Made by a program: the position numbers and the translations under genes. A stretch of 64,000 nt of DNA, from positions 96,001-160,000 of IMG/VR virus record IMGVR_UViG_3300005529_000024. One strand, 5' to 3'. Source of the stretch: a virus. The first letter of the stretch is position 1; the number at the start of each line of letters is the position of its first letter. Below, piece after piece: positions 9,630 through 54,810 of this stretch. Under the pieces are notes generated by a model. That model was not told the DNA's origin and did not search any database. It worked only from the letters and a program-made list of their open reading frames with translations.

Positions 9630-10673
9630 ATGGCTTTAACACCTAAAGAAGTTATTGAAGCAATTAACAAGGCAATGAAGACTGAGGTAACTCAGATCGG
9701 TACGGAGCATCTGCTTTCAGATGTTCCGTATTTTATTTCTACTAGTTCTACCCTTCTTGATCTCGCATTGGGAGGAGGTATTGCTGGTAGACGTATCGTA
9801 GAACTTTATGCGTCCGAGTCAGAAGGTAAATCCACAATAGCCACACATATTCTTGCCAATGTGCAGAAGGCCGGTGGGCTGGCTATGTTGATCGATTCCG
9901 AAACTACAATCGAGCGTAGTAGATCAGAACGTATTGGTCTGGATATGTCTCAGGTCATCATGAACTATGCTTCTACTGTGGAAGATGGTTTTGATTCAAT
10001 CCGTGTTCTTCTGGAGAAGATTGCAGCGTCACCTAAACGTGCAGAAGATCCGACACAGCCTGTTGTAATCGTGTGGGATACTATTGCTGCCGTTCCAACA
10101 ATCGCTGAAAAGGAAAAAGGTAAGTTCGGTGGTGGGCAAGCGGAACGTCCCCGTATTATTCGTGGTGGACTGCGCTTAATCAGTATGCCGTTAGCAAAAG
10201 CTAATGCTGTTCTGATCCTTAATAACCATCTGATCTCTTCTCTCAATCCTTATTCTCCGGTTACTACTCCAGGAGGTACTGGTCCTAAACTCTTTGCGAC
10301 TCATCGAATCTGGTTAAAGAGATCTGGACTATGGAAAGACCCTGTTACTGATGTTGAGAAGGGTATTATTGTCCGGGCTAAGATTATGAAAAACAAACTT
10401 GGTCCCCCGTTAAAAGAACCTGAGATCGTCATCATGTTCGAGAACGGTATTGATGATAACTGGAGTCTTTTCACTTATGCCTCTGATGATGAAGTAAAGA
10501 TCATTGAGCGTGGTGGGGCTTGGTATTCATTTAACTTCCCAGATGAGAAGGGGAACATTATTACCAAGAAGTTCCATCAAAAAGACTTTCCTAAGCTTTG
10601 TATTGATCATCCAGGATTGATTCCTCAGTTGAAGAAGAGAGTGACGGATTATTGGAATGGCAATGGAGTTTGA
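9630..10673 (+). CDS. recA: RecA/UvsX recombinase
   Basis: LDLALGGG, Walker A ASESEGKS, IDSE, VWDTIAA, TPGG, KNK..PP, GAWY. Confidence 0.93.
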   Translation: MALTPKEVIEAINKAMKTEVTQIGTEHLLSDVPYFISTSSTLLDLALGGGIAGRRIVELYASESEGKSTIATHILANVQKAGGLAMLIDSETTIERSRSERIGLDMSQVIMNYASTVEDGFDSIRVLLEKIAASPKRAEDPTQPVVIVWDTIAAVPTIAEKEKGKFGGGQAERPRIIRGGLRLISMPLAKANAVLILNNHLISSLNPYSPVTTPGGTGPKLFATHRIWLKRSGLWKDPVTDVEKGIIVRAKIMKNKLGPPLKEPEIVIMFENGIDDNWSLFTYASDDEVKIIERGGAWYSFNFPDEKGNIITKKFHQKDFPKLCIDHPGLIPQLKKRVTDYWNGNGV

Positions 10674-11715
10674 TAAGGTAGTATCTGCTTTCAGTAGTGA
10701 GCCTGCAAAGCTTCTAATATTCGACGGAAACGCTGCGTTACATCGTGTCCTGCATATTCCAGCGTTATTGGGTATGCGTGTTGAGGATGTCCCTACAGGC
10801 GGTATCAATGGCATGATGAAGGTCATAAGAAAGGAGTTATCCCTCTTTGATCCTCATCATGCCATATTCGTTTGGGATTCCAGTAGCCTGAGTAAGCGTC
10901 GTTTATCTCTTTATCCAGACTACAAAGCAACACGTCCTGGTAGGAGTGAGCCAAAGACATTAGAGGAAGCAGAAAAGCGAGCAGAATATTCAGCTTTATT
11001 TTCATGCCAGAAATCCAGGATTGATTGTATGTTAAACGATCTTGGCATTTACAGCGTATCTTTAGATGGGTACGAGGCTGACGATATAATTGCTTTTTTG
11101 GCACGTGAGTTCTCTGCCAGTATGCAGGTATGCATTGTAAGCGATGACTTTGACATGTGTATGCTGATCGATAAGAATATTTCTGTGCATAGGCCGATTA
11201 ATGAGGAGCTTATTTCTATCGATAACGCTAAGGAGAAGTTAACTGTAACCCCAGAGATGTACATGTTTATAAAGGTACTGTGTGGGGATAAATCCGATAA
11301 TCTTGATGGAGTGCCGAAGGTTGGACCAAGTACGGCTGAATATATAGTCTCAAAAATGACAGCACCTACTATTGAGAATCTTGTGTCTACTTGTAACGAT
11401 ATCATAAGCTCTTCTGTCGAGGCTACATCCCAGGTTAAAAAACGTGTCCACTCAGTTTTAGGTAATCTGGATATAGTTAAACGCAATGTTGATATGATTG
11501 ATCTATCGAAGGAGTATTTCAGCGAAGCAGATATTAATAAGATCGGATCTATACTGAGTTTTCCTGTTAAAGCAAATGAGCGCAATATAGAGATGATTTT
11601 TAATAAATATCAGTTTAATGCGCTGACACAGTTTTTCCGAAATTGGTTTACTCCTTTTCTACGTTTGAAGCCACTTGAGGTAGGGTTGATGCATGGAAGA
11701 ACATTTATCAGATAG
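10657..11715 (+). CDS. 5'-3' exonuclease / flap endonuclease (RNase H-like)
   Basis: FDGN, YKATR, EADDIIA, SDDFD, GDKSDNLDGVPKVGP. Confidence 0.92.
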   Translation: MAMEFDKVVSAFSSEPAKLLIFDGNAALHRVLHIPALLGMRVEDVPTGGINGMMKVIRKELSLFDPHHAIFVWDSSSLSKRRLSLYPDYKATRPGRSEPKTLEEAEKRAEYSALFSCQKSRIDCMLNDLGIYSVSLDGYEADDIIAFLAREFSASMQVCIVSDDFDMCMLIDKNISVHRPINEELISIDNAKEKLTVTPEMYMFIKVLCGDKSDNLDGVPKVGPSTAEYIVSKMTAPTIENLVSTCNDIISSSVEATSQVKKRVHSVLGNLDIVKRNVDMIDLSKEYFSEADINKIGSILSFPVKANERNIEMIFNKYQFNALTQFFRNWFTPFLRLKPLEVGLMHGRTFIR

Positions 11716-18559: not shown

Positions 18560-18651
18560 AGGCCCTTAGTTTAACGGCAAAATCCTGGACTTATAATCCA
18601 GAAGCTCTAGATTGGAGCGCGATACGGGTTCGAATCCCGTAGGGCCTACCA
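18560..18651 (+). tRNA. tRNA-Ile(UAU) with long variable arm, encoded CCA
   Basis: AGGCCCT/AGGGCCT acceptor; CTGGA-CTTATAA-TCCAG anticodon arm (TAT 18592-18594); 22-nt variable region; ACGGG-TTCGAAT-CCCGT; ends ACCA. Confidence 0.9.
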
Positions 18652-19472: not shown

Positions 19473-20417
19473 ATGAACATTTTGATTAAAATGATTTTTG
19501 GTAGTTACCTTTATGGAACTGCAATTGAGGGCGTGAGCGATAAAGACTTCAAGGGCGTGTTCATGCCAGAGTTCTCTGATATCCTGCTGGCTAGGGTTAG
19601 CAAATCATATCAGACTTCTACCAAGAATGGCGACGGCAAGAATACTACCTCAGATGTCGATTCTGAGTTTTATTCCTTGCATTATTTTATCGAACTGGCT
19701 TGTCAAGGGCAGACTGTTGCCTTGGATATGCTTCACGCTCCAGAGTCCATGTGTTTAATATCGAGCCATATCTGGAGGGATATCGTTGCCCAAAGACATC
19801 TGTTTTATACTCGTAATCTGGACTCTTTTATCGGATATGCGCGTAGGCAAGCATCTAAGTATGGCATTAAGGGTAGCCGTCTTTCCGCTGCCAGTAGCGT
19901 TATCGATTTCCTTAAGAGGTGCTCTCCCTTTGAAACATTGGGCTACTATTGGGAGGAGCTTCCTCTTAGTGAGCATATCTTTAAGCATCCAGGGCAGGCT
20001 ACCAATAACAATCTGAGGGAGTATGAAGTCTGCGGTAGAAAGTTCCAGGAAACCGCTTCTATTTCCTATGTCTTGCCGATCATCGAAAAGTTTTATGCCA
20101 ATTATGGGGATAGGGCAAGACAAGCAGCGGAAAATAAAAATATTGACTGGAAAGCGATTAGCCATGCATACAGAGCAGCATTGCAGGTTAAGCAAATTCT
20201 GACTGAAAAGACGATTACTTTCCCCTTGCCACAGGCCGCTTATCTGAGGGATATCAAGACCGGAAAGCTGGATTATTCTACTGTGGTTGCCCCTGAGCTT
20301 GAAAAATTAATGGCTGAGGTAGAGGCGTTATCATTGAAAAGTGATTTGCCGGAAAGAGTTGATCGGGCTTATTGGGATTATTTTATCAAGGAAGCTATCA
20401 GGCGTTATTACTGGTAG
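19473..20417 (+). CDS. DNA polymerase beta superfamily nucleotidyltransferase (RlaP/NrdC.11-like)
   Basis: FGSYLYGT...SDKDFKGVF; KAISHAYR; IKTG. Confidence 0.82.
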   Translation: MNILIKMIFGSYLYGTAIEGVSDKDFKGVFMPEFSDILLARVSKSYQTSTKNGDGKNTTSDVDSEFYSLHYFIELACQGQTVALDMLHAPESMCLISSHIWRDIVAQRHLFYTRNLDSFIGYARRQASKYGIKGSRLSAASSVIDFLKRCSPFETLGYYWEELPLSEHIFKHPGQATNNNLREYEVCGRKFQETASISYVLPIIEKFYANYGDRARQAAENKNIDWKAISHAYRAALQVKQILTEKTITFPLPQAAYLRDIKTGKLDYSTVVAPELEKLMAEVEALSLKSDLPERVDRAYWDYFIKEAIRRYYW

Positions 20418-35714: not shown

Positions 35715-35743
35715 TTGACAAATTTATAAGATCCTGCTATACT
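35715..35743 (+). promoter_or_regulatory. sigma70-type promoter for the Y-RNA-like array
   Basis: TTGACA-N17-TATACT with TG extension, 16 nt upstream of unit 1. Confidence 0.85.
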
Positions 35744-35759: not shown

Positions 35760-35823
35760 TTGGTGGGTCGGAGTCAATGGGTTATCTTGGATAATACCCC
35801 ATGACGAAAAAATTATCCACCAA
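35760..35823 (+). ncRNA. Y-RNA-like unit 1 (minimal)
   Basis: TTGGTGGGT/ATCCACCAA terminal stem; GGGTCG...TTATCC motif; inner stem then TTATC. Confidence 0.72.
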
Positions 35824-35829
35824 TAGGTT

Positions 35830-35904
35830 AGATGGGTCGCTGTTGATGGGTTATCAAACATATTATATTGATTAATCTCCCATTGACGACAAAATTATCC
35901 ATCT
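35830..35904 (+). ncRNA. Y-RNA-like unit 2
   Basis: AGATGGGT/ATCCATCT; GTTGATGGG/CCCATTGAC; same motifs. Confidence 0.72.
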
Positions 35905-35910
35905 TTAAAT

Positions 35911-36039
35911 ATGTGGGTCGATTTTCAGTTGGTTATCGAATTTGAATCGAGAGACATGGGTTCGAATCCCATACGCTAGTTATGCTGGCGTTAGCTTAGT
36001 GGATAGAGCACTTTCCGACTGATACTAACTTATCCACAT
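35911..36039 (+). ncRNA. yrlA: YrlA-like Y RNA with circularly permuted tRNA module
   Basis: ATGTGGGT/ATCCACAT; TCAGTTGG/CCGACTGA; T-arm, loop-closed acceptor stem, then D-arm. Confidence 0.85.
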
Positions 36040-36053
36040 TTAATTTAACAATT

Positions 36054-36119
36054 TAGCGGGTCGCCATTAGTCGATTATCGCCTGGAAAAATATTTCGATT
36101 AATACATACTAATCCGCTA
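36054..36119 (+). ncRNA. Y-RNA-like unit 4
   Basis: TAGCGGGT/ATCCGCTA; ATTAGTCGA/TCGATTAAT; GGGTCG and TTATC motifs. Confidence 0.7.
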
Positions 36120-36236
36120 TTAAAAATCCCTAAGCTCAGTCGCTAAGCGTCTGAGAGGGTCGCCAAGCGTCCCGTCTTAGGTGAGATCCCGCATCCATGA
36201 TAATATCTGCCCATATTGTCTGGATACCACCTCCTC

Positions 36237-36277
36237 AAAATGGCATGATGGCCTATAAAGCTGTCATGCCATTTTTC
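36237..36277 (+). terminator. intrinsic terminator closing the ncRNA operon (possibly bidirectional)
   Basis: AAAATGGCATGATGGC...GCTGTCATGCCATTTTT. Confidence 0.85.
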
Positions 36278-45125: not shown

Positions 45126-46712
45126 ATGGCGAAATACACAAAGCATTTCCAAACGAAGCAGACCAAACAAACTGAACCGATTCCCGGTAAGAACCAGGTG
45201 AAAAATAATGCTGGTGGTTATACGTTCAAGATTACCCCAGAGGCGCAGTTTAAGCGATTCTTGATTCTTGGTAGTGATGGTGGTAGTTATTATCAGACCG
45301 AGAATGACTTGACTGTTGAAAATGCTGAGAATGCAGTTGAGTTTATTAAGCAGGATGGCGTTATGGCAGTAAAGCTTATTGCTGAAATCTCAGATCAGGG
45401 TAGAGCAGCTAAGAATTCACCGGCTATCTTTGCTCTGGCTCTTGTTTGTACATTCGGTAGCCCTGAAGCAAAAGCTTGCGCGTATAAGGCGATTCCTGTT
45501 GTGTGCCGTATCGGTACTCATATCTTTGAGTTTTGCCAGTACATTCAAGATCTTCGTGGGTGGAGCCGTGGGCTTAGAAAGGGTGTTGCTTCTTACTTTG
45601 AGAAAAAGGTTGCTGATTCCAATCTGGCGCTTGACGTTATCAAGTATCGTCAGCGTGATGGTTGGACACATAAGGATGTTCTTCGTTTGTCTCATCCTTC
45701 AATCAGCGGTAATGATGTCAACTCGGTTTTAAAGTGGGCTGTTGGTAAAGAGGTTACAGAGAAAAACGCGCTCATCAGTGCATTTGAACAGATTCAGAAG
45801 ACGACCAATGTTAATGAGGCTGTTAAGCTGATTGAGGAGAATAACCTCCCTCGTGAAGCTGTTCCTACGGATCTGCTTAATTCTGCGGATATCTGGAATG
45901 CTTTGCTTGTTAAAATGCCGATGAAAGCCATGATCCGCAATCTTGGAAAAATGACTTCCATTAACCTTCTTAAGTCTAACTTTGGTGAACAGGAGAAGAG
46001 AGTTATTGCTTCTCTTACTAATGTAGAGGCTTTGAGCAAGGCACGTATCCATCCTCTGGATATCCTTGTTGCTCTTAAGATCTACAGTCAGGGTCATAGT
46101 GAAAGAGGATCTCTCTCATGGCGTCCTGTTCCTGGTATTGTTGAAGCTTTGAATGAGGCTTTCTATCTTTCTTTCAAGAATGTAGCTCCACTTGGTAAGA
46201 ACTTCCTTATCGGACTTGATGTCTCTGGGTCTATGTCTAGCCGTATTTCAGACAGCAATTCATTGACTTCACGTGAAGCAACTTCAGCTATTTCTCTGTT
46301 GCTGGCCCGGACTGAGAAGTCGGCAGAGGTGTTTGCTTTCTCTAACTCGTTCATGCCGTTGACTGTTCACAAGAATCTGAGCCTTGAGGGATTGATGCGT
46401 AAGACAGAAAGTCTCCCATTCCAGGGTACTGATTGTGCTCTTCCAATGTTGCATGCTACCCGTAATAAGATTGACAACATTGATTGTTTCATCGTGTTAA
46501 CCGATAGTGAAACGTGGGCTGGAAATATTCATCCTAGCCAAGCTTTACTTGATTATCGGAGACAGTTTAATCCGGAAGCCAAATTGATTGTTTTGGCAAC
46601 TGTTCCTTCTGCTTTCACGATTGCTGATCCGACCGATGCAGGCTATTTGGATATCGCTGGATTCGATTCAAGCGTGTATTCGGTCATGCAAGAATTCCTG
46701 AAAGGATGGTGA
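45126..46712 (+). CDS. rsr: Ro60/TROVE domain ribonucleoprotein (Rsr ortholog)
   Basis: NNAGGY, RFLILGS.GG.YY, GWSRGLR, KYRQR.GWTHKDVLRLSHP, AMIRNLG, RIHP, vWA DVSGSM, GTDCALPM, TDSETW, GFD. Confidence 0.96.
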   Translation: MAKYTKHFQTKQTKQTEPIPGKNQVKNNAGGYTFKITPEAQFKRFLILGSDGGSYYQTENDLTVENAENAVEFIKQDGVMAVKLIAEISDQGRAAKNSPAIFALALVCTFGSPEAKACAYKAIPVVCRIGTHIFEFCQYIQDLRGWSRGLRKGVASYFEKKVADSNLALDVIKYRQRDGWTHKDVLRLSHPSISGNDVNSVLKWAVGKEVTEKNALISAFEQIQKTTNVNEAVKLIEENNLPREAVPTDLLNSADIWNALLVKMPMKAMIRNLGKMTSINLLKSNFGEQEKRVIASLTNVEALSKARIHPLDILVALKIYSQGHSERGSLSWRPVPGIVEALNEAFYLSFKNVAPLGKNFLIGLDVSGSMSSRISDSNSLTSREATSAISLLLARTEKSAEVFAFSNSFMPLTVHKNLSLEGLMRKTESLPFQGTDCALPMLHATRNKIDNIDCFIVLTDSETWAGNIHPSQALLDYRRQFNPEAKLIVLATVPSAFTIADPTDAGYLDIAGFDSSVYSVMQEFLKGW

Positions 46713-46716
46713 TCAT

Positions 46717-47826
46717 ATGAGCACATTAAAAGTAGAGATCTGTAGAATTGATGGTGTGGAAAAGCATCCTAATGCCGATAGGCTGGATATTGTCAAGATT
46801 GCCGGTTGGCAATGTGTCACACAGAAAGATGCTTTTAAGGTAGGGGATTCCTGCGTCTACATACCGATTGACTCGATATTGCCCCTCGAAGTTGAGAGTA
46901 AGATCTTTGGTCCTGATTCTAAGATTAAGCTTGATAAATCTAGGGTCAGATCAATTAAACTTCGTGGTGCCATTTCACAGGGTATGGCTGTAAGACCATC
47001 TACTCTCGGTATTCCTGATGATCAGGATGTTGGTACAGATGTTTCTGAGATTCTTGGCATTAAGAAATATGAACCGCCTACCAGGGAGGTGTCTCATAAC
47101 AGTCAGCTTAATCCTAAACCAAAGCGAAGCTGTAATCCTAATTTCAAGAAGTATACTGGTATCGAGAACTGGAAATGGTATCCAACACTTTTCGATAGCA
47201 CAGAAGAGGTCGTAGTTACAGAGAAGATTCATGGTACAAACTTCCGCTGTGGCTATATTCCTTACTGTGCAAATACTTGGTGGAAGAAGGTTCTGAAGTT
47301 TCTTCACCTTACACCTCAGTATGAGTTTGTGTATGGTAGCCACAATGTTCAGTTGCAGAATAAACTGCGCTATAAAGGCTACTACAGCAATAACGTGTAT
47401 CTTAAAATCGCTAAGCAATATAACCTTGAGTCTGTTCTGAAGAACTTTCCTGGTTTTGTTGTATACGGGGAAATCTACGGTGATAGGATACAGAAGGGAT
47501 ATAATTACGGGTGTGGTACAGGAGAGCATAAGCTCGTTGTTTTTGATGTCATGCACGATGGCAGTTATCTAGACTTTCCTGTCTTTAGTGTTTTTTGTAA
47601 TTTGAGACGGCTACCTATGGCCCCTGTTGTTTATCATGGCCCGTATGATGGCGATAAGATTCTGTCCCTTACCAAAGGCAATTCTGTTCTCTGTCCTGAG
47701 CAGAGGGTTCGTGAGGGAGTCGTTGTGAAACCATTAAAAGAACAGATAACATTTATGGGTAGAAAGATTTTAAAAGTCATCTCTGATGATTATCTGTTGA
47801 ACAACGATAACACTGACTTTCATTAA
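46717..47826 (+). CDS. ATP-dependent RNA ligase (Rnl2/DRB0094-like) with N-terminal OB domain
   Basis: HPNADRL; LRG..SQG; TEKIHGTN; YGEIYG; VFD; REGVVVK; LKVIS..YL. Confidence 0.92.
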   Translation: MSTLKVEICRIDGVEKHPNADRLDIVKIAGWQCVTQKDAFKVGDSCVYIPIDSILPLEVESKIFGPDSKIKLDKSRVRSIKLRGAISQGMAVRPSTLGIPDDQDVGTDVSEILGIKKYEPPTREVSHNSQLNPKPKRSCNPNFKKYTGIENWKWYPTLFDSTEEVVVTEKIHGTNFRCGYIPYCANTWWKKVLKFLHLTPQYEFVYGSHNVQLQNKLRYKGYYSNNVYLKIAKQYNLESVLKNFPGFVVYGEIYGDRIQKGYNYGCGTGEHKLVVFDVMHDGSYLDFPVFSVFCNLRRLPMAPVVYHGPYDGDKILSLTKGNSVLCPEQRVREGVVVKPLKEQITFMGRKILKVISDDYLLNNDNTDFH

Positions 47827-53534: not shown

Positions 53535-54185
53535 ATGAAACTCGTTGCTCTTTCTGACACTCACAACCAGCATAATAATATAGAGGTCCCGAATGGAGAC
53601 ATACTCGTTCATGCTGGCGATATCAGCTATCAGGGTAGATTCCAAGAGATAGCAGTATTCATAAAATGGTTTGCTGCTCAACCTCATCCTATCAAGATTC
53701 TCGTACCAGGTAATCATGATTTCCTGTTCGAACGTGATATGCCTACCGCGAGAAAACTGTGTGAGGAGAATAAGATTACGCTCTTGGTAAATGAAGGAGC
53801 GACAATTAGAGATCTCTTTGTTTGGGGTAGTCCTGCTGTGCCCTTCTTTATGAATTGGGCTTTTAATTATCAGCGTGGTGAAGATATCAAACGGTTTTGG
53901 AACCTCATCCCTTCTGATATCGATTTACTTATTACTCATGGTCCACCAAAAGGAATCCTTGATGAGATTGATGGACAGGAAGTAGGCTGTTGGGATCTTC
54001 TGGAAGAGGTCCTTAATAGGATTAAACCAAAAGTTCATTTGTTTGGGCATATACATAAAAATGGAGGGCTGTCACTTACAATTGATGGAACGACATTTTA
54101 TAATGTGGCTATTTGTGACGAAACGTATAAAACAACAAATCCAGTAACTGTGATTGATATAGGGAGAGAAAAACATGGTGCGTAA
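53535..54185 (+). CDS. metallophosphoesterase (MPPED/239FB-like)
   Basis: SDTH, HAGD, PGNHD, THGPP, FGHIH. Confidence 0.9.
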   Translation: MKLVALSDTHNQHNNIEVPNGDILVHAGDISYQGRFQEIAVFIKWFAAQPHPIKILVPGNHDFLFERDMPTARKLCEENKITLLVNEGATIRDLFVWGSPAVPFFMNWAFNYQRGEDIKRFWNLIPSDIDLLITHGPPKGILDEIDGQEVGCWDLLEEVLNRIKPKVHLFGHIHKNGGLSLTIDGTTFYNVAICDETYKTTNPVTVIDIGREKHGA

Positions 54186-54810
54186 TGTTGAAGGGTTAAA
54201 ATTTTTCTTAAAGAATACGATCTTTGATGTGGTTCTTTATGATACGGATGATCATAAGAAATATGCTGTCGCTGGTGGTGCTGTACGCGATTACCTGTCT
54301 AACAATCCGATTAAAGACATCGATATTTTCTGTGAAGATATTGAGGCAGAAGAATATATCCTGGATAGGCTTCAATCGTTAGCTGATTTCGGTCATCCAG
54401 ATATCGTCTACGTAAACCATAATGATTTCCTTTCTAACTATCGTATTGGGGAATATGCTGTTCAGATTATCCGGAACAAGTATTTCCCGCTTACTAATGA
54501 TCCTAGTTTTCTAATTGAAGCATTTGACTTCACCATTTGTGGCGGTATGGTTCGTTTCGATGGTGAAGCATTCTTCCTTCCTACATTCTTCCAAGACTGT
54601 CTCGCAAAACATCTTCGCATTCAAGTTATTACCTTCCCCTTGTCAACACTCGAACGTATGCAAAAATATATTCAACGAGGTTACACAGCATGCAATGGTA
54701 CTCTCCTGAGTATTGCAAAGAGTCTTCAAGGCTTGGATTACGATAATCCAGATGTCAACACTCTTGTCTTTTATCCGGATGGTACGCCTAGATTTTTCTC
54801 ATACGATTAA
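54175..54810 (+). CDS. CCA-adding/poly(A) polymerase head-like nucleotidyltransferase
   Basis: AGGAVRD...KDIDIF; FDFTIC; R..KY..RGY. Confidence 0.78.
   Translation: MVRNVEGLKFFLKNTIFDVVLYDTDDHKKYAVAGGAVRDYLSNNPIKDIDIFCEDIEAEEYILDRLQSLADFGHPDIVYVNHNDFLSNYRIGEYAVQIIRNKYFPLTNDPSFLIEAFDFTICGGMVRFDGEAFFLPTFFQDCLAKHLRIQVITFPLSTLERMQKYIQRGYTACNGTLLSIAKSLQGLDYDNPDVNTLVFYPDGTPRFFSYD

What the first reader, a model, noticed from the sequence alone, without database searches (positions are those of the whole stretch)
35911..36039. Unit 3 contains a complete circularly permuted tRNA, apparently keeping an anticodon arm
Seen, in order: TCGA-ATTTGAA-TCGA (35936-35950; 7-nt loop with TTG central, preceded by T and followed by AA); short variable loop; T-arm ATGGG-TTCGAAT-CCCAT; acceptor-like stem ACGCTAGT/GCTGGCGT closed by a TAT loop; TA; D-arm GCTT-AGTGGATA-GAGC. 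The permutation point lies between the D-arm and the anticodon arm. Known: YrlA RNAs mimic the tRNA elbow in T/acceptor/D order. Inference: the extra anticodon-like (Gln UUG) hairpin could be a decoy for host anticodon nucleases. Alternatively it is a permuted tRNA precursor that the phage ligases and nucleotidyltransferase could mature.
Basis: partly seen in the sequence, partly recalled or inferred. Interest (0 to 1): 0.8.

Follow-up and report, generated by a model that had tools for sequence, protein, structure and literature searches.

The report
Phage Y RNA mimicking whole tRNA
One of four small RNAs that this phage encodes for its Ro60 protein is a tRNA written in rotated order that keeps even an anticodon-like arm, a part that published descriptions of this RNA class call a variable arm or say is missing.

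Summary
Window 35912-36038 (+) is the third of four tandem Y RNA genes (promoter 35715, terminator 36237). The 174-kb phage encodes Ro60 9 kb downstream. Unit 3 is a YrlA-type Y RNA: a Ro60-binding stem, then T arm, closed 7-bp acceptor stem, UA and D arm. A model built from 14 homologues, without the window, scores it 86 bits (E 2e-16). Rfam's YrlA model gives only 29 bits (cut-off 69).

The TCGA hairpin corresponds to the 'V stem-loop' of Chen et al. 2014. Its geometry is that of an anticodon arm, not a variable arm. One nucleotide after the D stem, C36011 can pair with G35951. That completes a 5-bp stem over the 7-nt loop AUUUGAA, 4 nt before the T stem.

The same composite arm fits 55/71 phage and metagenome relatives and 38/70 bacterial relatives, against 3-6 expected by chance. 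The loop keeps U33, a purine at 37 and A38, while the triplet varies. The Y stem is therefore inserted into the 5' strand of the anticodon stem.

The decoy and maturation ideas remain untested. This scan has noted anticodon arms on Y RNAs before, on other DNA.

The parts
35715..35743 (+). Sigma-70-type promoter of the Y RNA operon (TTGACA, 17 nt, TATACT, TG before the -10)
   Evidence: 11 of 12 consensus matches
35762..35821 (+). Y RNA unit 1 (simple stem, GGGUCG ... UUAUC ... UUAUCC)
   Evidence: (24.7 bits to R1 through its Y stem), fold, (sbRNA model RF01656)
35831..35903 (+). Y RNA unit 2 (simple stem)
   Evidence: (27.0 bits)
35912..36038 (+). Y RNA unit 3: YrlA-type Y RNA with a complete tRNA-like module
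   Evidence: 86.4 bits, E 2e-16, full model; RF02553 29.2 bits
35912..35932 (+). 5' strand of the Y stem. Terminal helix 35912-16 pairs with 36034-38. It carries the Ro60-type motif GGGUCGA (35915-21). Upper helix 35926-32 pairs with 36015-21.
   Evidence: P of upper helix 0.8-0.99; motif shared by all four units and by more than 100 homologues
35933..35937 (+). UUAUC motif. UUA is the 5' tether; UC opens the local strand of the anticodon-like stem.
   Evidence: UUAUC or UUACC precedes the local stem in 24 of 35 bacterial cases
35936..35950 (+). Anticodon-arm-like hairpin: 4 bp (tRNA positions 28-31/39-42) and the 7-nt loop AUUUGAA (U33, triplet UUG, A37, A38)
35951..35955 (+). G35951 (position 43, partner of C36011), then the 4-nt variable loop AGAC ending in C48
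   Evidence: window row: k=4, vl=4
35956..35972 (+). T arm, 5 bp, loop UUCGAAU
35973..35991 (+). Acceptor-stem equivalent, 7 bp, closed by a loop instead of free ends
35992..36009 (+). U8-A9 and the D arm (4 bp, 8-nt loop with A14, G15, G18-G19, A21)
36010..36014 (+). A36010 = position 26; C36011 = position 27 (pairs with G35951); UUU is the 3' tether to the Y stem
36015..36038 (+). 3' strand of the Y stem, ending in UUAUCCACA
36055..36118 (+). Y RNA unit 4 (simple stem)
   Evidence: (26.6 bits)
36237..36275 (+). Intrinsic terminator of the operon (16-pair hairpin followed by a T run)
45126..46712 (+). Phage Ro60 (TROVE and Ro60 vWA domains), the presumed protein partner, 9.1 kb downstream on the same strand
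46717..47826 (+). ATP-dependent RNA ligase gene, 4 nt after Ro60

Best explanation
Unit 3 is the tRNA-mimicking (YrlA-type) member of a four-gene Y RNA operon, and the phage's own Ro60 is its presumed partner.

Shown from sequence and comparison:
- The 5' and 3' ends pair into a Y stem carrying the Ro60-type motif GGGUCGA.
- The stem encloses a full tRNA cloverleaf written in rotated order: anticodon-like arm, variable loop, T arm, a closed 7-bp acceptor stem, U8-A9, D arm, position 26.
- The hairpin after UUAUC is not a variable arm. With C36011-G35951 it completes a 5-bp anticodon-type stem under the D stem. It carries a 7-nt loop with U33, A37 and A38.
- The Y stem therefore leaves the cloverleaf through the 5' strand of the anticodon stem, between positions 27 and 28, on short tethers (UUA and UUU).
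- In relatives the exit point slides along that strand. It ranges from 26/27 to the anticodon loop itself; the latter is the published Salmonella form.

Inferred:
- Ro60 holds the Y stem.
- The tRNA-shaped module is presented to proteins that recognise tRNA. The complete anticodon loop extends the mimicry to proteins that read or cut anticodon loops.
- The likely setting is the phage's RNA repair and surveillance gene set: an RNA ligase fused in an operon with Ro60, a phosphoesterase and nucleotidyltransferases.
- It is not a decoding tRNA.
For: Identity as a Y RNA of the YrlA kind:
- Model R1, built from homologues only, scores unit 3 at 86.4 bits, E 2e-16, over the full model.
- Rfam RF02553 aligns T, acceptor and D arms.
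- Ro60 is in the same genome on the same strand.
- The unit sits in a promoter-to-terminator array of four units sharing GGGUCG...UUAUC.
- Similar arrays occur in other phages (L035) and beside bacterial Ro60 genes.

The hairpin forms. With T, acceptor and D arms enforced it is part of the minimum-energy fold, with pair probability 0.86-0.94. The rival pairing has probability 0.01.

Anticodon-arm geometry in relatives:
- 12/67 non-redundant hairpin regions fit, against 1.6 in shuffles. A larger sample gives 33/117 against 4.1.
- The strict composite model requires 1 nt after the D stem, a 5-bp stem split between the post-D strand and a local strand, a 7-nt loop and a 4-5 nt variable loop. It fits 55/71 phage and metagenome RNAs, against 3.2 +/- 1.7.
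- In a sample chosen only by Ro60 protein, it fits 38/70 bacterial RNAs, against 6.0 +/- 2.4.
- Counts peak sharply at loop 7, offset 1, stem 5 and variable loop 5.
- The loop has U at position 2 in 42/46 and 31/35 cases, and a purine at position 6 in 46/46 and 33/35. The middle triplet is variable.
- Every stem position shows 3-6 canonical pair types.
- After the D stem, RNAs with a local hairpin have 5-11 unpaired nucleotides before the Y stem. The Y stem therefore cannot stack directly under the D stem.

Repair context.
Against: - There is no expression, end-mapping, Ro60-binding or probing data.
- Rfam's curated YrlA cut-off is not reached (29.2 against 69 bits).
- Ro60 is 9 kb away, not adjacent.
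- The local stem is only 4 bp (-1.8 kcal/mol alone). The fifth pair, C36011-G35951, is a lone long-range pair that energy models do not credit.
- The unconstrained minimum-energy fold is different and equally stable. It pairs UCGAUU 35918-23 with AAUCGA 35945-50.
- Unit 3 departs from the family consensus in three ways: A rather than a pyrimidine at loop position 1, a 4-nt rather than 5-nt variable loop, and a UUU rather than A-rich tether.
- The phage and metagenome sample was drawn with a pattern that fixes UUAUC and the length of the region. This inflates the share of closed hairpins there. The bacterial sample does not have that bias.
- Which helix stacks on the D stem cannot be settled from sequence.
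Confidence: 0.7

Rival explanations
1. Published model. The hairpin is the equivalent of a tRNA variable arm (the 'V' of Chen et al. 2014). The Y stem itself plays the anticodon stem, as in the Salmonella YrlA crystal structure, so the RNA has no anticodon arm.
For: PMC4201824 models V as the variable arm. In Salmonella YrlA the stem leading to the Ro60 module stacks as the anticodon stem (10.1101/312249). The hairpin lies between the Y stem and the T arm, where a class II extra arm would lie.
Against: - Unit 3 has 5 nt between the D stem and the Y stem, and relatives have 5-11. tRNA and Salmonella YrlA have 0-1.
- The hairpin-to-T-stem connector is 4-5 nt, the length of a class I variable loop.
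- The loop is 7 nt with U33, R37 and A38, not the 3-5 nt loop usual for extra arms (the extra-arm figure is my own knowledge).
- In many relatives the 3' strand of the hairpin runs on without a break into the strand that pairs with the nucleotides right after position 26. This gives exactly 5 bp.
Confidence: 0.15
2. Functional version of the reader's idea. The anticodon-like loop makes the RNA a bait or competitive inhibitor for host anticodon nucleases, or a platform on which the phage ligase acts, protecting host or phage tRNAs during infection.
For: - U33, R37 and A38 are conserved without any decoding role, which implies that something reads the loop shape.
- Ro60 is followed at 4 nt by an RNA ligase. 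The phage also carries a phosphoesterase and nucleotidyltransferases.
- The inhibitor idea is in print for Salmonella YrlA (PMC7790460).
- The phage has only one tRNA gene of its own.
Against: - There is no direct evidence.
- Salmonella YrlA was not cut by the damage-induced nuclease.
- The triplets differ widely between relatives, with no link shown to any nuclease's target.
- The host and its defences are unknown.
Confidence: 0.2
3. Permuted tRNA precursor. The acceptor loop is opened, CCA is added and the two halves act as a decoding tRNA-Gln(UUG).
For: M. smegmatis YrlA is cut by RNase P and receives CCA. ARAGORN calls the re-permuted sequence tRNA-Gln(ttg). The phage lacks a tRNA-Gln gene.
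Against: - The ARAGORN call is non-specific: 62-68% of shuffled controls are also called.
- The Y stem would remain inserted in the anticodon stem.
- The D and T arm sequences are those conserved in all YrlA RNAs whatever the triplet.
- Relatives carry many different triplets on the same body.
- A32, U73 and the C1-G72 pair do not match what I recall of GlnRS identity elements (own knowledge).
Confidence: 0.03
4. The hairpin in unit 3 is an evolutionary relic or a chance pairing with no role of its own.
For: The stem is only 4 bp. The region is the least conserved part of YrlA RNAs. Many relatives lack a closed hairpin: k = 0-1 in 9 of 55 fitted RNAs and 3 of 38.
Against: A shuffled sequence gives a hairpin of this geometry with k of 4 or more in about 1.7% of trials (null). 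The family-wide loop signature and compensatory changes argue for selection.
Confidence: 0.1

Closest known systems
YrlA RNAs of bacteria and actinophages (Rfam RF02553; Chen et al. 2014, PMC4201824; Wang et al. 2018, 10.1101/312249)
   Same: - Ro60-binding stem formed by the two ends, with a GNCGA-type motif
- T arm, closed acceptor-like stem, UA and D arm in that order
- tRNA tertiary-contact nucleotides kept
- encoded with Ro60, often beside further Y RNAs
- an optional 'V' stem-loop upstream of the T arm
   Different: - It scores below Rfam's cut-off.
- It belongs to a UUAUC-bearing subgroup.
- It lies 9 kb from Ro60, in its own four-gene operon.
- The V element here has anticodon-arm geometry with a closed 7-nt loop. 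The solved Salmonella RNA 'lacks the anticodon loop', and the literature assigns V to the variable arm.
Deinococcus radiodurans Yrn1
   Same: It is a Y RNA with tRNA-like features. Chen et al. note a potential 'anticodon arm' with a 5-bp stem.
   Different: In Yrn1 the Y stem takes the place of the acceptor stem. Its loop is 6 nt and it lacks a full D arm. Here the acceptor stem is a closed hairpin and the Y stem leaves through the anticodon stem.
Thermus phage phiLo Ro60 with Yrl1/Yrl2 (PMC12135203)
   Same: A phage-encoded Ro60 with phage-encoded Y-like RNAs. Binding is shown in vitro, and host PNPase is recruited.
   Different: As far as the text I read says, those RNAs are not described as tRNA-like. 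They lie next to the Ro60 gene.
tRNA-shaped Y RNAs in normal tRNA order (L004 7976-8103, 8374-8501, 9798-9919; earlier notes e1-5529253, e1-5466571)
   Same: They have the same parts: a tRNA body, an A-rich tether, a Y helix and UUAUC. They lie beside a phage Ro60 that is 41% identical.
   Different: They are the circular permutation of unit 3. The acceptor stem is open, and the Y helix is a capped hairpin placed in the anticodon region.
Circularly permuted tRNA genes of the red alga Cyanidioschyzon (own knowledge, not checked here)
   Same: The gene order of the tRNA halves is rotated.
   Different: Those are processed through a circular intermediate into ordinary decoding tRNAs. They carry no Ro60-binding stem.

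Membership tests
YrlA-type Y RNA | Ro60 orthologue encoded in the same genome, near the RNA and on the same strand | tested here: inconclusive
   The Ro60 gene (TROVE and vWA domains) lies at 45126-46712 on the same strand. It is 9.1 kb away, outside the adjacency criterion of PMC4201824.
YrlA-type Y RNA | The 5' and 3' ends pair into a stem carrying the Ro60-type motif (GNCGAA, N0-1, G) near the 5' end | tested here: met
   Helices 35912-16/36034-38 and 35926-32/36015-21. The motif is GUCGAU, one departure from GNCGAA. The other three units share it.
YrlA-type Y RNA | T arm, closed acceptor-like stem and D arm in that order, with the tRNA tertiary-contact nucleotides | tested here: met
   Present are U8, A9, A14, G15/C48, G18-G19, and T54-A58 in UUCGAAU.
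YrlA-type Y RNA | Reaches the gathering score of Rfam RF02553 (69 bits) | tested here: not met
   29.2 bits, E 3e-4. The model mis-aligns the longer 5' part.
YrlA-type Y RNA | Significant match to a model of undoubted relatives built without it | tested here: met
   R1 gives 86.4 bits, E 2e-16. The same model finds 130 hits beside 80 bacterial Ro60 genes.
YrlA-type Y RNA | Bound by Ro60; carries tRNA modifications (D, pseudouridine) in vivo | not testable with these tools
   Needs immunoprecipitation and modification mapping.
Genuine tRNA gene | Contiguous cloverleaf with an open acceptor stem, recognised by tRNA finders in native order | tested here: not met
   ARAGORN and Rfam tRNA call only the tRNA-Ile at 18560 in the window. 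Unit 3 is called only after manual re-permutation, and so are 62-68% of shuffled controls.
Anticodon arm (as a structural element) | One nt after the D stem, a 5-bp stem, a 7-nt loop with U33 and purine 37, and a 4-5 nt variable loop before the T stem | tested here: met
   Unit 3 has A36010, then C36011-G35951 plus 4 local bp, loop AUUUGAA and connector AGAC. The geometry is specific within the family.
Class II tRNA variable arm | An extra hairpin on a body whose anticodon stem follows position 26 directly; short loop; 1-2 nt before position 48 (own knowledge of tRNA) | tested here: not met
   There are 5 nt between the D stem and the Y stem, the loop is 7 nt, and the 3' connector is 4-5 nt.

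The most novel reading that the evidence does not exclude
YrlA-type Y RNAs in general, including this phage's, are full-length tRNA mimics. Their 'V stem-loop' is a selected anticodon stem-loop with U33, R37, A38 and a lineage-specific triplet, here UUG. The Ro60-binding stem is grafted into the 5' strand of the anticodon stem. The loop is the working end: it baits, inhibits or reports on enzymes that cut, modify or reseal anticodon loops. Phages would use it against tRNA-cleaving defences.
Probability: 0.2. Interest if true: 0.8.

Novelty: new variant of a known kind. Interest (0 to 1): 0.58.

Why it matters
Y RNAs tether Ro60 to other proteins, and the partner of the tRNA-like YrlA class is still unknown. 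The published view is that the mimicry stops at the tRNA elbow: T, D and acceptor, with no anticodon loop.

If most members also display a proper anticodon stem-loop, as here, the list of candidate partners widens. It would then include anticodon nucleases, anticodon-loop modification enzymes and tRNA repair ligases. That ties Ro60 particles more directly to the tRNA-damage pathway already linked to the rsr-yrlBA-rtcBA operon.

For phages, it suggests a testable way of coping with tRNA-cleaving defence systems.

The sliding graft point also gives a simple rule for annotating these RNAs, which Rfam's model misses here.

Tried and rejected
1. blastn of the array against 50,697 phage records found no match.

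2. ARAGORN on the re-permuted sequence gave a positive call, but shuffled and random controls were also called in 62-68% of cases. I rejected it as evidence for the anticodon arm.

3. Unconstrained folding gives a different, equally stable fold that breaks the Ro60 motif helix. I kept it only as a possible alternative state.

4. A Salmonella-like anticodon stem, GAGAG 35949-53 with CUUUC 36011-15, has pair probability about 0.01 and leaves a 2-nt variable loop. Rejected.

5. In the first small sample the loops looked like CUGUNAA, the GUN or queuosine-family anticodon loops. That suggested a link to tRNA-guanine transglycosylase or colicin E5-type nucleases. With 117 and then 70 further sequences the triplets proved diverse, so I dropped the idea.

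6. My first heuristic hairpin picker, which scored on stem length, mis-chose hairpins. I replaced it with fixed-geometry tests and shuffles.

7. Two reviews (PMC10870794, PMC6047535) are not held. I cannot exclude that they comment on the V element.

8. I did not build a structure-aware alignment for the count of structure pairs. The pair statistics come from my scripts.

Full report
WHAT IS THERE

The window is bases 96001-160000 of a 174-kb phage record (GC 38.9%) with a single tRNA gene. Between a strong sigma-70-type promoter (35715-35743) and an intrinsic terminator (36237-36275) lie four tandem units. Each has its ends paired into a stem that carries GGGUCG near the 5' end. Each has UUAUC after the upper helix and UUAUCC-type sequence at the 3' end. 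Rfam's nematode stem-bulge (Y RNA) model and its YrlA model both give sub-threshold hits here.

A Ro60 gene with TROVE and Ro60-vWA domains lies 9.1 kb downstream on the same strand. An RNA ligase gene follows it after 4 nt. No other Y-like unit exists in the genome.

CHECK OF THE OBSERVATION

Rfam YrlA aligns the T arm, closed acceptor stem, UA and D arm correctly. It scores only 29.2 bits against a cut-off of 69, because it cannot place the longer 5' part.

I collected relatives with two pattern scans of viral contigs and one of metagenome contigs. I aligned 14 of them without the window. I built a covariance model with pairs only in the terminal stem and the T, acceptor and D arms. In the 64-kb window that model finds unit 3 over its full length at 86.4 bits, E 2e-16. 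It finds the other three units at 25-27 bits through their Y stems. Unit 3 is thus a clear member of a family of YrlA-like RNAs.

With T, acceptor and D arms enforced, the cloverleaf plus Y stem plus TCGA hairpin is the minimum-energy fold (-39.5 kcal/mol). The hairpin pairs have probability 0.86-0.94. The unconstrained optimum (-39.8) is a different fold that sacrifices the Ro60 motif helix.

WHAT IS ALREADY KNOWN

Chen et al. 2014 (PMC4201824) described YrlA RNAs in more than 250 bacteria and 22 phages. [quoted passage not shown] They also showed RNase P cleavage and CCA addition for M. smegmatis YrlA.

The crystal structure of Salmonella YrlA shows the stem leading to the Ro60 module acting as the anticodon stem. 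The authors state that YrlA lacks the anticodon loop (10.1101/312249).

Hughes et al. 2020 (PMC7790460) suggest that the tRNA-like domain might competitively inhibit an anticodon nuclease.

The hairpin is therefore not a new element. The question is what it corresponds to.

THE HAIRPIN HAS ANTICODON-ARM GEOMETRY

In 67 non-redundant relatives from the least restrictive scan, 12 have a stem of 4 or more bp starting at the UC of UUAUC. That stem carries a 7-nt loop and a 3-6 nt connector to the T stem. Shuffles give 1.6 +/- 1.3, and none of 2000 reached 12. With the metagenome sample the count is 33 of 117 against 4.1 +/- 2.0.

Looking at what follows the D arm showed two apparent classes. In some RNAs the strand just upstream of the T stem pairs with the nucleotides right after the D stem, as in Salmonella. 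In others it pairs locally.

These are ends of one series. In the general rule:
- One nucleotide (position 26) follows the D stem.
- The next m nucleotides and k local nucleotides after UUAUC (k + m = 5) together pair with one continuous 5-nt strand.
- That strand lies 4-5 nt before the T stem and encloses a 7-nt loop.

This strict model fits 55 of 71 non-redundant phage and metagenome RNAs, against 3.2 +/- 1.7 in shuffles (maximum 9 in 1000). The values of k run from 5 to 0.

That sample was drawn with a pattern fixing UUAUC and the region's length. I therefore took a second sample chosen only by Ro60 protein similarity: 80 loci from many bacterial phyla. It holds 89 modules in T, closed-acceptor, D order, 70 of them non-redundant. 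Of these, 38 fit, against 6.0 +/- 2.4 (maximum 13 in 500).

Varying one parameter at a time, the counts peak at the tRNA values:
- loop of 7 nt: 35, against 5-13 for other sizes
- one nucleotide after the D stem: 30, against 2-5
- stem of 5 bp: 35, against 3-19
- variable loop of 5 nt: 32

The loop keeps the anticodon-loop hallmarks:
- Position 2 is U in 42/46 and 31/35.
- Position 6 is a purine in 46/46 and 33/35.
- Position 7 is A in 39/46 and 24/35.
- Position 1 is a pyrimidine in 35/35 of the bacterial set.
- The three middle positions vary.

Each of the five stem positions shows three to six canonical pair types.

UNIT 3 UNDER THIS RULE

For unit 3, k = 4. A36010 is position 26 and C36011 pairs with G35951 (27-43). 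The local hairpin 35936-39/35947-50 gives pairs 28-31/39-42. The loop is AUUUGAA (U33, triplet UUG, A37, A38). AGAC is the variable loop, ending in C48, which can pair with G15 of the D loop. The Y stem leaves between positions 27 and 28 on the tethers UUU and UUA.

Unit 3 is a slightly atypical member. It has A at loop position 1 (12 of 46 do), a 4-nt rather than 5-nt variable loop, and a U-rich rather than A-rich tether.

WHY NOT A VARIABLE ARM

If the Y stem were the anticodon stem, 5 nt would separate it from the D stem in unit 3, and 5-11 nt in relatives with a local hairpin. The extra arm would carry a 7-nt loop and a 4-5 nt 3' connector. In the k = 2-3 relatives the hairpin's 3' strand runs straight on into the strand that pairs with positions 27-29. 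This makes the hairpin the lower part of the anticodon stem by construction. Sequence alone cannot prove the stacking, so I keep the published model as a rival at 0.15.

ARAGORN calls the re-permuted sequence tRNA-Gln(ttg) at its default threshold. It also calls a tRNA in 624 of 1000 constructs with the hairpin region shuffled, and in 682 of 1000 with random window 21-mers. The other arms are so good that the test says nothing about the anticodon arm.

FUNCTION

Nothing here shows function. The loop signature is conserved without decoding. The T and D arm sequences are the same across RNAs with different triplets. These facts argue that the loop's shape is read by some protein, and that these are not tRNAs of different identities. 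The gene neighbourhood points to RNA repair and surveillance: a Ro60-ligase operon, a phosphoesterase and nucleotidyltransferases.

My best reading is a Ro60-held, whole-tRNA mimic offered to tRNA-binding proteins. The bait or inhibitor version is a plausible sub-hypothesis (0.2). Maturation to a decoding tRNA is unlikely (0.03).

NOVELTY

The object is a member of a known kind, and phage Y RNAs with Ro60 are known. Three things appear not to be in the papers I could search:
- the assignment of the V element to the anticodon arm
- the composite stem
- the sliding graft point

Two reviews were not available.

Earlier notes of this scan report anticodon-like arms on Y RNAs in other genomes, and the reverse permutation (tRNA order with a Y hairpin). 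I saw the reverse permutation myself in L004, beside a phage Ro60. Those notes are leads, not evidence. The counts above are my own.

Noticed in passing
L004 7976-8103, 8374-8501, 9798-9919 (Ro60 gene at 10001-11686): There are three tRNA-shaped RNAs in normal tRNA order, scoring 46-48 bits to Rfam tRNA, or to tmRNA for the third. A roughly 55-nt insert replaces the anticodon loop. The insert consists of an A-rich tether, a capped helix with CUUGACCGG-CAA-CGGUACG, and then GUUAUC. This is the circular permutation of YrlA, lying just upstream of a phage Ro60.
   Followed up: partly
window 18560-18651: The phage's only tRNA gene is tRNA-Ile(UAU), with an unusual extra arm of about 19 nt (62.8 bits to Rfam tRNA).
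   Followed up: no
window 36126-36185: A fifth structured element lies between Y unit 4 and the terminator. It has two small hairpins inside a closing helix (-25.8 kcal/mol, z -2.7) and contains another GGGUCG.
   Followed up: no
window 35762-35903 (units 1-2) and all four units: The motif (U)GGGUUAUC after the upper helix matches the consensus of the nematode stem-bulge (Y RNA) model RF01656 (30.8 bits, E 2.7e-4). From memory it also occurs in some human Y RNAs. The UA is probably the conserved 'kink' UA of Salmonella YrlA.
   Followed up: partly
window 35918-35923 with 35945-35950: In the unconstrained fold the 3' strand of the anticodon-like hairpin (AAUCGA) pairs with the Ro60 motif (UCGAUU). 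This could be a mutually exclusive state of the free RNA.
   Followed up: partly
L280 486-1016; also L290, L288, L281, L307, L300: Bacterial Ro60 loci (Verrucomicrobiota, Chloroflexota and others) carry up to four or five tandem tRNA-like Y RNAs, not just one YrlA plus simple Y RNAs. Model R1 gives 130 hits in 80 loci.
   Followed up: partly
L277, L282, L329, L287, L212 and others (bacterial and metagenome YrlA-like RNAs): Many loops are letter-for-letter those I recall from real anticodon loops with U36-A37-A38: CUCAUAA, CUUUUAA, CUGUUAA, CUGAUAA. As I recall, these belong to the tRNAs that receive t6A37. CAU is the commonest triplet (7 of 35).
   Followed up: no
window 53535-54810 and 19473-20417: A metallophosphoesterase gene overlaps a nucleotidyltransferase-like gene. 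A separate RlaP-family ('RNA repair pathway') nucleotidyltransferase gene lies elsewhere. Together with the Ro60-ligase pair they look like an RNA end-healing and sealing set.
   Followed up: partly
L035 2950-3400 (minus strand): The closest relative of unit 3 (loop AUUGAAA) also sits in a promoter-led array of several Y-like units in an 80-kb phage contig.
   Followed up: partly
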